64,000 nt of DNA, from positions 70,928,001 to 70,992,000 of the forward strand of contig OX597816.1 of assembly GCA_951406725.2 (NCBI GenBank). The letters are read 5' to 3'. Shown piece after piece: positions 11,006-50,502 of the stretch (position 1 is the stretch's first letter; each line of letters opens with the position of its first letter). The notes beneath the pieces were generated by a model. It made no database searches, was not told the origin of the DNA, and saw only the letters and a program-made list of their open reading frames with translations. Position numbers and translations under genes: made by a program. Origin of the DNA: Octopus vulgaris (lineage: Eukaryota).

Positions 11006-12074
11006 TATATAAGAAAAAAGGTTTGAAAATGCAATTTAAACGATGTTTATTTACTTAACCGGTTTCACTCTTTGGTAAAAGATTGTCAAAAGTTACATTT
11101 AAGGAAACATTGAATAATATGGGTTCAAAAAAAGTTTTTTACATAATTGTCACATTGAATATTATGCATTCAAAAAAGTTTTTTACATAATTGTCACATT
11201 GGATATTATGGGTTCAAAAAAGTTTTTTACATAATTGTCACATTGAATATTATGCATTCAAAAAAGTTTTTTTACATAATTGTCACATTGGATATTATGA
11301 ATTCAAAAATGTTTTTTTATACATAATTGTCACATTATTTGGGAAAATTAGGCAGAAAAGGATAAAACAAATATATTATTGGGAATTGGTTGCGTTAATT
11401 ATTGGTTGTCGCAAATTGTCACATGTATATATATACAATCTTTGGTATATATATACAGCGTTTTGACAGCAAAAATTAAAATGGATTTTTTGTACATCTC
11501 AGAATATTTTAAGTATGTTTTTACTGACCTGTCAGTCTGCTAATACTGACAGGTCAGTAAAAACATACTTAAAATATTCTGAGATGTACAAAAAATCCAT
11601 TTTAATTTTTGCTGTCAAAACGCTGTATATATATACCAAAGATTGTATATATATACATGTGACAATTTGCGACAACCAATAATTAACGCAACCAATTCCC
11701 AATAATATATTTGTTTTATCCTTTTCTGCCAAATTTTCCCAAATAATGTGACAATTATGTATAAAAAAACATTTTTGAATTCATAATATCCAATGTGACA
11801 ATTATGTAAAAAAACTTTTTTGAATGCATAATATTCAATGTGACAATTATGTAAAAAACTTTTTTGAACCCATAATATCCAATGTGACAATTATGTAAAA
11901 AACTTTTTTGAATGCATAATATTCAATGTGACAATTATGTAAAAAACTTTTTTGAACCCATATTATTCAATGTTTCCTTAAATGTAACTTTTGACAATCT
12001 TTTACCAAAGAGTGAAACCGGTTAAGTAAATAAACATCGTTTAAATTGCATTTTCAAACCTTTTTTCTTATATA
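11006..12074. repeat. ~1.07-kb near-perfect palindrome containing a ~43-bp tandem repeat
   Basis: Arms 11006-11536 and 11545-12074 with an 8-nt loop CTGCTAAT. The ORF track shows mirrored ORFs differing by one residue. About 5 copies of TTTACATAATTGTCACATTG.ATATTATG..TTCAAAAA per arm. Confidence 0.95.
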
Positions 12075-36610: not shown

Positions 36611-36682
36611 TGCCAGCCATGAGACTCGAACTCACATTCCTGTGATAACGCGTCAAGTGCTTTACCATTAAGCTAAACTGTC
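36611..36682 (-). pseudogene. tRNA-like sequence (pseudogene or SINE head)
   Basis: GACAGTT TA GCTT aatggta AAGC..TGA cgcgtta TCA..GTGAG TTCGAGT CTCAT GGCTGGC A. D and T arms are good; acceptor and anticodon stems are mismatched. Confidence 0.55.
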
Positions 36683-43384: not shown

Positions 43385-43828
<444 letters not shown>

Positions 43829-47321: not shown

Positions 47322-48126
47322 CACATATATTTAATATTATATATATAATAATTTTTTGTATTACTATATTTTAATTTCAATTAAAATATTATTAATATAT
47401 TCTATATTATATTTATAAAATATATTTTAATTTTTATAAAATATATATATATATATATTCATACATATATATATATACATATATTAATATATATTTAATA
47501 TATATATATTATATTTAATAATATATAATTTATAATAATTTTATATACATTATAATATACATATTTACATACATACAAATAATTTTAATTTTTTTCTTCA
47601 AAATTTTTATAATATGTTTATGTTTATATATATTATTATTTTTATATATTATATTATGTTGTTTTTTATATTTGTGTAATGTTTTGTGTGTATGTAATTA
47701 TGTATTGTGTGTGTCTTTTTATTTTTTATTTGTTTATTATTTGTTTATGTTTATGTATGTATTGTTTTAATTATTATGTATTATTATATATTTCTTTTTT
47801 ACATTTTTTTATTATATACATTAATTAATAGTAAACAGAAGATAATATATAATACATAAATAATAATTAATAATACATTATTTTACATGTAATAATTATA
47901 ATATATAATAATACATAATTTTTATTATATTTTTATAGTTATGTATGTACTTTTATGTTAATCGAGTTTGAGAATAATATTCTATCTTATGTCTTTATAT
48001 CTCTATCTCTGTCTCACACACACACATATATATACACATGTTTGTATATATTTGTTGTGTACAGTTTTATATTTTAAAAAATAATATGTTTTGTGTATGT
48101 GTGTGTTGTTTTATTTGTTTTATTTT

Positions 48127-48195
<69 letters not shown>

Positions 48196-48199
48196 ATAT

Positions 48200-48286
<87 letters not shown>

Positions 48287-48290
48287 TATC

Positions 48291-48323
<33 letters not shown>

Positions 48324-48330
<7 letters not shown>

Positions 48331-49107
48331 AATTAGGGCTTAGTAAAATAAATTACTTTGCCAGAATTTGCTAGAAATAGCAGCCAAGAAAAGTTTTTTG
48401 CCATTTCCACTACTTAAAGAAAATTTCTCTCAGATAATGTTTACTCAAAACAACTTACGAAGGTATGGAGGTAAAAACAGAAAAATATCACAAGTACAAA
48501 GATTATTTGAGAACGTTAACGTTTCTAGATTAGCCAAATAAACTCAGCATTTCTTTCGTCAGCTCAACATTTCTTATTTTGGATTTGGAAGCACTAAAAA
48601 GAAAGAACATACCCTTTGGCGACTTATCACCTCAGATGACCCGTTCAGACTGCCAGTACCAACAAATTCAAAATGTACAAGCGAAGATTCACTGCTCTCC
48701 CCTTCCACCCACGTGGGTTATCTAGCAAACATTATATTTTAACGGTGAGAACCGAGGCAATATGACAGAGAGAAATGAATTATAATATCAACAATTGAGG
48801 GTAAAAATTAATTAGTTATTAATCAATTTCACCAAGTATTCAGTATGTAAAAGGACCATTTAAGGCGAATTCAAAATATTACATTATAAAATTAGGGCTT
48901 AGTAAAATAAATTACTTTGCCACATACTGAATTTGCTAGATATAGCAGCCAAAAAAAAGTTTTTTTGCCATTTCCACTACTTAAAGAAAATTTCTCTCAG
49001 ATATCTGAGAGAAATTTTCTTTAAGTAGTGGAAATGGCTTTTTTTTGGCTGCTATTTCTAGCAAATTCAGTATGTGGCAAAGTAATTTATTTTACTAAGC
49101 CCTAATT

Positions 49108-49114
<7 letters not shown>
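48324..49114 (-). mobile_element. PLE/retrozyme-like element: direct repeat + HHR + terminal fold-back
   Basis: 48324-48436 is repeated at 48883-49003 (period ~559 bp). 48883-49114 is a palindrome centred on GATATC. Flanked by (TA)n on both sides. Confidence 0.75.
48507..48567 (-). ncRNA. Type I hammerhead ribozyme motif
   Basis: TTGAG CTGACGA A AGA...TCT A GAAAC GTTAAC GTT CTCAA: 5-bp stem I, palindromic loop 3. Confidence 0.75.
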
Positions 49115-49139
<25 letters not shown>

Positions 49140-49615
49140 ATAAACCTCTGAGCGAGGTATAAACAGTAGCTGCACGGCATCGTGAATTATATTTGCCACT
49201 TATTTGTGGCTAACCCCTAAGGGTGGTTGCTACTGTAGCTTGTAGCCCCAGGACGGTTTCGTCTCGGAGCGGGACCGAGAAAACCGTCTCATATTCTTTT
49301 AAATTTAATTCATTGTAATTAATTCTTTCGTATGTCTTTTTGTTCCCGCATGTTTGTGTATGTCCCCTCTGTATTCAGGCCTTGTGCCTATAATAAAGAG
49401 AAAACCGCTGATTGTCACACGCTAATGGCGGGTCAATACCCAGAAACTCGAGTCCATGTGTATCATAAGTTGAAGACGGGAAGGATGGCTTCCCTTTGCA
49501 AATACTGACAGGGCACAGAAAGTGTGTCAATAGCCAGCTGAAGGAGGTGTCCTCCTGAGGCTTCAGTTGCATCCACACTTATGAGTTAGCCACATTTAAG
49601 TGGCAAATGTATTCA

Positions 49616-49677
<62 letters not shown>

Positions 49678-50502
49678 ATGTTAAGGAGAATTACAGGTAG
49701 GTCAACAGTTATACATATATTCTGCCATAGATCAATGCATATCACTCCATATAATATACCAATATATCAGTCGTTAAAATATTAAAACATATTAAAAATT
49801 CATGAATACACAAATATATAAAAATCTAATATACATATATTTTTTTATACCTTTGGGTCTCGGGCTTTTTAGTTGAGCACTTCTGACTACTGCCTGTACA
49901 CCACAGGAAATTGCTGTTGACAAACAACAGCAGAAATTGTATTCACCTTAATAGACGTCATTGATTGGTTGAAATTGCCGAAATGCCGAATTTAACAACA
50001 AATAGCTTACAAACTGCAGAATTTTCTCAAGAAAGCCAAGCGAAAAAGATGTTTTATGTAACGCATTCTACCAGTATACGAAGTTTAAAAGTGTTTAGTT
50101 ACAAAGACATCATTTTAAAAATCTGCCGGTCAAAGTGAAAAGATCCAATCCATTTGCAAGGTTTTTGTTGGCCTAAGGTTATAGTAGAAGACACTTGCCG
50201 AAGGTACCCAGAACCATGAAGTTGGGAAGCAAGTTTCTTACCACACAGCCACGCCTGCACCTATGAAAAAAAAATATTTTAAATTTTTCTATTTTTTGAA
50301 ATTAATCATTTATAATTACTGACCTAAAAGTTCTTCGCAAAATGCTTTTCAGCTGTAAACGACGTAACTGTCGGCCGATTACATTTTGAAGATCCGGTTT
50401 GTATTAATTCTCTTCCTTCTTCTCATACAAATCTCGGGAGTTATAAAAACGGACGTGAGAGTAGTACTTCCTCTCTCTGACTAAGTGATATTGACTGAGT
50501 CG

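What the first reader, a model, noticed from the sequence alone, without database searches (positions are those of the whole stretch)
48324..49114. All hallmarks in one insertion: (TA)n target, HHR, ~559-bp partial tandem and 5' fold-back
Seen: terminal redundancy of ~115 bp, a complete HHR with a GUUAAC loop, and a loop-less inversion of the second repeat. The three repeat copies differ by small indels, which argues against a simple read artefact. It is the best single model locus for the mechanism: priming at TA, copying past one unit length, then hairpin-primed second strand.
Basis: partly seen in the sequence, partly recalled or inferred. Interest (0 to 1): 0.75.

Follow-up and report, generated by a model that had tools for sequence, protein, structure and literature searches.

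The report
Two-armed hammerhead retrozyme, atypical mirror copy
This is one copy of a many-copy, protein-free 564-base repeat that carries a hammerhead ribozyme motif and sits in TA microsatellites as two back-to-back arms; it is likely pasted in by a Penelope-type enzyme copying one RNA from both cut DNA strands, and this copy is a rare mirror-shaped exception rather than the model case.

Summary
The anatomy is real: (TA)n, 1.2 units, a type I hammerhead motif (48567-48507, minus strand), a loop-less inversion at 49002/49003, then (TA)n. It belongs to a dispersed non-coding family with a 564-bp unit (559 here) that is built like animal non-LTR retrozymes and Penelope-like (PLE) insertions.

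The proposed mechanism, a hairpin-primed second strand, is not supported. Of 120 loci, 82 are two-armed. In 66 of 68 scorable ones, one arm ends at a 'short' site and the other at a 'long' site 103 nt away; this locus is the only short+short case. Twelve of 80 arm pairs share no sequence. Both arms come from one template (0.6-1.0% apart against 2.3% between loci).

Mirror junctions are enriched (7 of 82, 1.0 expected), but this one has a 2-nt TA overlap and no loop, so it cannot self-prime. The best model is priming from both target strands on one multimeric or circular RNA, with the two cDNA ends joined by microhomology.

No partner PLE was found in 60 loci; cleavage and expression are untested. 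The scan already noted this two-site pattern in other families of this genome.

The parts
48133..48329 (.). (TA)n microsatellite, left flank (likely target)
   Evidence: TA on both outer sides in 66 of 80 two-armed family loci
48326..49003 (-). Arm 1: 1.2 units (559-bp unit plus about 117-nt redundancy); RNA sense is the minus strand; its 3' end is at the 'short' site
48326..48436 (-). Repeat copy 1 (3' end of arm 1), with a private 6-bp deletion
48507..48567 (-). Type I hammerhead motif: stem I 48567-48563/48511-48507, CUGACGA 48562-48556, stem-loop II 48555-48526 (A.A at its base), GAA 48525-48523, palindromic stem III 48522-48513; predicted cut 48512|48511
   Evidence: cleavage not tested
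48781..48884 (-). 103-nt 'tail' between the long site (48781) and the short site (48885); internal here, but it forms one end of most two-armed family copies and is the best-conserved part across sister families (91-97% against 74-82%)
48885..49003 (-). Repeat copy 2 (pseudo-LTR-like redundancy, 5'-truncated)
49002..49003 (.). Mirror junction: 2-nt TA overlap, no loop; the only such loop-less junction in the genome
49002..49114 (+). Arm 2: inverted, 5'-truncated copy (about 117 nt of unit), 3' end also at the short site
49109..49139 (.). (TA)n, right flank

Best explanation
This is a two-armed insertion of a non-coding, hammerhead-bearing 564-bp repeat (a non-LTR retrozyme), likely made when a borrowed Penelope-type enzyme cut both strands of a (TA)n tract and primed copying of one multimeric or circular RNA from each cut end. 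Shown: the anatomy, TA flanks, two fixed arm ends 103 nt apart, a shared template for both arms, read-through of the ribozyme site, and short overlaps at the junctions. Inferred: each arm is an independently primed cDNA, normally one from the long site and one from the short site; the two cDNA 3' ends pair through 1-5 nt and each then templates the other's second strand. Here both arms started at short sites, both stopped at the same base (likely a shared RNA end or break), and they joined through TA. The enzyme, the RNA form and ribozyme cleavage (probably as a dimer through the palindromic stem III) are untested.
For: Arm pairing: 66 of 68 loci with both ends at a fixed site are long+short (P=1.6e-17 against 50:50). 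In the set not chosen by end type it is 22 of 27 (1 short+short, 4 other). The pattern recurs by eye in sister families at 74-82% identity.
Not fold-back: 12 of 80 arm pairs share no sequence, and in 23 of 80 neither arm contains the other. In 20 of 21 loci whose short-site arm exceeds one unit the partner arm is long.
Junctions: 37 of 60 resolved junctions overlap by 1-5 nt.
One template: arms differ by 0.99% and 0.63% within loci against 2.31% and 2.27% between loci of the same subfamily; 22 of 100 locus-private alleles are on both arms.
Asymmetry is original: mirror and non-mirror loci have equal arm divergence, 14/1416 and 168/17330.
Zero-loop mirrors: 5 of 6 allow no self-pairing and 1 allows a single pair.
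Read-through: 109 of 202 arms cross the predicted cut site and only 4 of 202 end within 185-199.
Literature: an anole PLE cuts and extends both strands and starts at two internal sites that define the tail (PMC11167929); the tail is often at one end only and TA is a PLE target (PMC8557442).
Against: This locus breaks the long+short rule, and a fold-back that stops at the first TA-like site would give exactly short+short. A long+long exception without a mirror also exists (L093), so same-type pairs do not need fold-back. Mirror junctions exceed chance (7 of 82 against 1.0; 2 of 20000 shuffles), which needs the extra assumption of a shared RNA end. Three near-mirrors (L020, L047, L106) do allow 2-4 self-pairs. 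Gene conversion between arms could also make them alike. PMC11167929 saw no difference in start site between strands in bulk. No partner PLE sharing the terminus was found in 60 loci. The hammerhead shows conservation but no covariation beyond shuffles, and a distant relative in L011 has lost the core. The loci were chosen by best match or by end motif, not at random.
Confidence: 0.65

Rival explanations
1. Fold-back: one cDNA primed at TA runs 1.2 units, folds on itself, copies its own last 117 nt and jumps back to the target at the first TA-like site.
For: It explains short+short and the exact mirror at this locus. Mirrors are enriched (11 of 82 within 6 nt against 2.5 expected). L020 and L106 have natural 3-4-bp hairpins at the junction. 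All three copies share a rare allele.
Against: This junction has no loop and zero self-pairs. It cannot give the 12 of 80 loci whose arms share nothing, nor explain long partners in 20 of 21 loci with a long short-site arm. Asymmetric loci are not older than mirror loci, so later erosion of palindromes does not rescue it.
Confidence: 0.2
2. The insertion began as an ordinary long+short pair, and the short+short end and/or the exact mirror arose later, by deletion of the 103-nt tail between TA-like repeats or by loss of a central spacer.
For: The other 12 or so near-mirror loci are long+short. The tail lies between two TA-like motifs. The three copies already carry private indels.
Against: The right end has the ordinary short-site junction form seen in other loci. 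Mirror loci are not more diverged than others. From recalled knowledge, long palindromes tend to gain central asymmetry, not lose it.
Confidence: 0.1
3. The inverted arm is an assembly or read artefact (a fold-back chimera of a long read).
For: Loop-less palindromes are a known long-read artefact (recalled). This exact junction is unique in the genome.
Against: The arms differ from each other. Arm 2 ends at a family-typical end followed by unrelated flank. 82 of 120 loci are two-armed with ordered ends. One 44-nt contig of run X11 crosses the centre without mismatch, though it is below the tool's 31-letter rule and may come from the source individual.
Confidence: 0.03

Closest known systems
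Animal non-LTR retrozymes (Cervera and de la Pena 2020, PMC7229834, passages read; Li, Clavereau and Pollet 2026, bioRxiv 10.64898/2026.07.22.740005, parts 1-3 of 5 read, supplements closed)
   Same: Small, AT-rich, non-coding unit with a type I hammerhead; tandem copies (up to 13 in a row in a sister family); strongly folded monomer (z -5.4); PLE mobilisation proposed.
   Different: The unit of 564 nt is above the 170-400 nt of the 2020 paper but within the 51-972 bp of the 2026 preprint. This locus has only one hammerhead. In the passages I read, neither paper describes two-armed insertions with fixed ends ('inverted' occurs 0 times in PMC7229834 and once in the preprint). RNA circles and cleavage are untested here.
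EN+ Penelope-like element insertions (Craig et al. 2021, PMC8557442, passages read)
   Same: Partial tandem (pseudo-LTR), inverted 5'-truncated copy, tail often at one end only, (TA)n targets, hammerhead in the repeat.
   Different: No RT or GIY-YIG ORF. The tail is 103 nt, not 30-40. That paper ascribes the tail to endonuclease-mediated resolution and calls the cycle undefined. This locus has no tail at either end.
Anole Poseidon element PAc in vitro (Frangieh et al. 2024, PMC11167929, main text and part of methods read)
   Same: Both strands cut and extended at AT-rich DNA; two internal start sites that define the tail; ribozyme cleavage not needed for insertion and no reads ending at the cut.
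   Different: PAc starts at RNA sites without homology to the target, whereas both sites here are TA-like. The paper does not address whether the two ends of one insertion use different sites.
L1 twin priming (recalled, not read here)
   Same: Second priming from the other target strand, inversion, microhomology at the junction.
   Different: L1 arms cover non-overlapping parts of one RNA; here arms usually overlap, exceed one unit and start at two fixed sites.

Membership tests
Animal non-LTR retrozyme | Type I hammerhead motif in the unit | tested here: met
   Core and three stems present; identical in 31 of 40 copies, core matched in 38 of 40; core intact in 13 of 14 aligned family and sister variants. 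No Rfam hit; no covariation beyond shuffles.
Animal non-LTR retrozyme | Small, low-GC, non-coding unit in tandem and dispersed copies | tested here: met
   564-bp unit; no stop-free stretch over about 70 codons in a two-unit copy (read by eye); GC 0.30 for 48001-50000; 474 exact long-end matches; arrays in sister families.
Animal non-LTR retrozyme | Two consecutive complete hammerheads (criterion for an 'active' locus in the 2026 preprint) | tested here: not met
   This locus has one hammerhead; other family loci such as L019 have two. The locus is a derived copy, not a likely source of unit-length RNA.
Animal non-LTR retrozyme | Self-cleavage, and linear or circular unit-length RNA | not testable with these tools
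   Needs bench work or raw RNA reads; only contigs were offered.
Non-autonomous Penelope-like element | Partial tandem (pseudo-LTR) plus inverted 5'-truncated copy | tested here: met
   This locus; 82 of 120 loci two-armed; 65 of 202 arms longer than one unit.
Non-autonomous Penelope-like element | Tail at one end only (two start sites) | tested here: met
   Family: 66 of 68. This locus itself lacks the tail at both ends.
Non-autonomous Penelope-like element | Microsatellite target | tested here: met
   TA on both sides in 66 of 80 two-armed loci. No target-site duplication can be read inside (TA)n, and the empty site was not seen.
Non-autonomous Penelope-like element | Terminus shared with an autonomous RT + GIY-YIG element | tested here: inconclusive
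   None among 30 of 148 GIY-YIG matches and 30 of 150 matches to a second PLE-like protein; thousands of candidates were not scored.
Autonomous Penelope-like element | ORF with RT and GIY-YIG endonuclease | tested here: not met
   No long ORF in the unit.

The most novel reading that the evidence does not exclude
One PLE protein-RNA complex primes both target strands at two fixed sites on a single, probably circular, retrozyme RNA, so the two ends of an insertion exclude each other. Loop-less mirror junctions such as this one record both cDNAs running off the same RNA break and being joined end to end. That would explain the tail, the pseudo-LTR and the inverted copy of Penelope elements in one step. 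I found no such pairwise rule in six full-text searches; older subscription papers and supplements were not searched.
Probability: 0.4. Interest if true: 0.65.

Novelty: new member of a known kind. Interest (0 to 1): 0.4.

Why it matters
The element type and each hallmark are in print. What the family adds is a count that bears on an open question: how Penelope-type elements make their tandem and inverted insertions. The two ends of an insertion almost never use the same start site (66 of 68), and both arms come from one template. This predicts paired products in the existing in vitro PLE assay. The locus itself is useful mainly as the exception: a loop-less mirror that can separate end-to-end joining from fold-back.

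Tried and rejected
Rfam: no ribozyme in the window at gathering score.

Hammerhead covariation: 2 compensatory cells, not above shuffles. One search used a misregistered structure string and is void.

Pile-up of 5' ends at the ribozyme cut: none, 4 of 202.

Asymmetric junctions as eroded palindromes: rejected, because mirror and non-mirror loci have equal arm divergence.

Partner PLE: not found in 60 loci. The weak matches in L068, L087 and L222 look like separate insertions of sister families. A motif taken from loose contig ends led to non-coding sister retrozyme families, not to an ORF. A distant sister family (30 of 82 matches fetched) showed no adjoining PLE ORF apart from the seed locus.

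Expression: no RNA holder is listed on record. Runs guessed to be RNA hold the unit as contigs, which shows nothing about strand, ends or circles.

Empty site: not attempted, because the left flank is low-complexity and the right flank is another repeat.

Circle or tandem transcript: 12 of 69 locus-private alleles sit in two or more tandem copies of one arm. This fits a circle but does not exclude a young tandem source.

Rows dropped before counting: 10 of 130 loci (same place fetched twice or near-identical duplicates); 2 of 82 at a locus edge for pair counts; 12 of 80 with an end at neither site; 22 of 82 junctions unresolved; 2 of 16 hand-picked mirror junctions unresolved.

Full report
1. 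Observation. The stretch 48324-49114 is as described: a TA tract, a unit repeated after 559 bp for about 115 bp, an inverted copy of that repeat with no loop, and a second TA tract. A scan for type I hammerheads found one on the minus strand at 48567-48507, so the RNA sense is the minus strand and arm 1 ends 3' at the left TA tract. The motif has CUGACGA, GAAA, a 5-bp stem I and a palindromic stem III (ACGUUAACGU), but an A.A mismatch opens stem II and the site is GUU. Rfam does not score it and it is not the lowest-energy fold. By analogy with amphibian retrozymes, whose short helix III needs dimers (PMC7229834), it probably cleaves as a dimer if at all; this is inference.

2. Family. The window lies in a 2.8-Gb genome (G000). 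The unit gave 2241 candidates, of which 40 were scored, the best at 92-97% identity. Exact end patterns gave 61 and 474 matches (the two patterns are not equally strict, so the counts are not comparable). The family unit is 564-565 bp and falls into two subfamilies (50 A, 37 B, 3 mixed of 90 typed). Sister families at 74-82% identity have 545-560-bp units, arrays of up to 13 units and 1081 exact matches to one motif. The hammerhead is identical in 31 of 40 copies from the best-matching loci. Its core is intact in 13 of 14 aligned variants, with 87% of stem cells paired but no covariation beyond shuffles. A cut-to-cut monomer from L019 folds far better than 60 shuffles (z -5.4). There is no long ORF. 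This is the make-up of animal non-LTR retrozymes (PMC7229834; bioRxiv 10.64898/2026.07.22.740005).

3. Insertion anatomy. I parsed 120 non-redundant loci out of 130 fetched: the best DNA matches, all 61 short-end matches, and 30 of the 474 long-end matches. Eighty-two are two-armed, with both 3' ends outward; TA lies on both sides in 66 of 80. Arm ends fall at two sites 103 nt apart: short (window 48326 and 48885) and long (48781). Of 68 loci with both ends at these sites, 66 are long+short, 1 is long+long (L093) and 1 is short+short: this locus. In the subset not chosen by end type, 22 of 27 are long+short, 1 is short+short and 4 have another end. Craig et al. describe partial tandems, an inverted truncated copy and a tail often at one end only. 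Frangieh et al. show that a PLE cuts and extends both strands and that two internal start sites define the tail.

4. Fold-back or two primers. For most loci fold-back fails. Twelve of 80 arm pairs share no sequence, and in 23 of 80 neither arm contains the other. Later erosion of palindromes does not explain this: arm divergence is the same in mirror loci (14/1416) and non-mirror loci (168/17330), and 14 of 52 non-mirror loci have identical arms. In 21 loci the short-site arm exceeds one unit, so a fold-back would meet a short site first, yet 20 end at the long site. Of 60 resolved junctions, 37 overlap by 1-5 nt, 4 are blunt and 19 carry inserted bases. Both arms come from one template: 0.99% and 0.63% apart within loci against 2.31% and 2.27% between loci, with 22 of 100 private alleles on both arms. 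Gene conversion is not excluded.

5. Arms stop within 2 nt of each other in 7 of 82 loci (1.0 expected; 2 of 20000 shuffles) and within 6 nt in 11 (2.5 expected). I examined 16 hand-picked mirror or near-mirror junctions, 2 of them from sister families, and resolved 14. Six have no loop and centre on a natural 2-6-nt palindrome; five of these, including this locus (TA), allow no self-pairing with a loop of 3 nt or more, and one allows a single pair. Three allow 2-4 pairs and could be true fold-backs. A loop-less centre is what two identical cDNA ends give when they pair with each other. The simplest cause of identical ends is that both ran off the same RNA end or break; this is inferred. The short+short state of this locus is the best point for fold-back, and I give that model 0.2 here. 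The junction is unique in the genome; one other locus (L192) has a near-mirror at the same place and is long+short. One 44-nt contig from run X11 crosses the centre without mismatch; this is weak support because it falls below the tool's bridging rule and may come from the source individual.

6. Template and enzyme. Of 202 arms, 109 read through the predicted cut, 65 exceed one unit and only 4 end near the cut. The template was therefore uncut multimer or a re-ligated circle, in line with the finding that PAc uses unprocessed RNA. The genome holds PLE-like GIY-YIG matches with open frames up to 781 codons, and several of the loci read end at TA tracts. None of 60 PLE loci examined shares the terminus, so PLE mobilisation rests on architecture alone.

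7. Verdict. This is a new member of a known kind. I reached the long+short rule before seeing that earlier notes of this scan report the same pattern for several other families of this genome; those notes are unchecked and are not evidence. An earlier look-up gave me the retrozyme paper as a lead. Six literature searches did not show the pairwise rule in print. Older PLE papers outside the library, and supplements I did not open or could not see, may bear on that claim. L1 twin priming and palindrome instability are recalled, not read. Interest 0.4.

Noticed in passing
window 49140-49618: Another element between TA tracts, directly beside arm 2, with imperfect inverted repeats of about 33 bp near its ends (about 49181-49213 and 49585-49617). 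Possibly another two-ended repeat; no canonical hammerhead was found by my scan.
   Followed up: no
window 43560-43720: A near-perfect inverted pair with a hammerhead-like motif (CUGAUGA...GAAAC) in each arm; probably another mirror-type insertion.
   Followed up: no
window 42381 (minus) and 30056 (minus): Two more type I hammerhead-like motifs with palindromic or short stem III and long stem-loop II, from unrelated repeats.
   Followed up: no
window 11107-11336 and 11745-11973: Two arrays of a 44-bp unit in opposite orientation.
   Followed up: no
window 36611-36682 (minus): tRNA-like sequence, Rfam 34.7 bits; could be the head of a SINE.
   Followed up: no
L011:957-1388: A relative about 70% identical that has lost the CUGANGA core but keeps the termini, inserted tail to tail with a family copy in one TA tract.
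   Followed up: partly
L065, L067, L068, L087 (3' of the GIY-YIG ORF): The abundant PLE family with a CxxC linker ends at TA at two points about 40 nt apart, and carries a hammerhead-like motif with a variant core (UUGAUAA...GAAAC) upstream of them.
   Followed up: no
family position 193 (window 48512): The cleavage-site base differs between subfamilies (U in A, A in B), as does the pair at the base of stem II (A.A in A, A-U in B); subfamily A spread with the weaker-looking ribozyme.
   Followed up: partly
L147, L148, L150, L151 (contig C31): Four near-identical copies of one short two-armed insertion on one contig, probably a segmental duplication.
   Followed up: no
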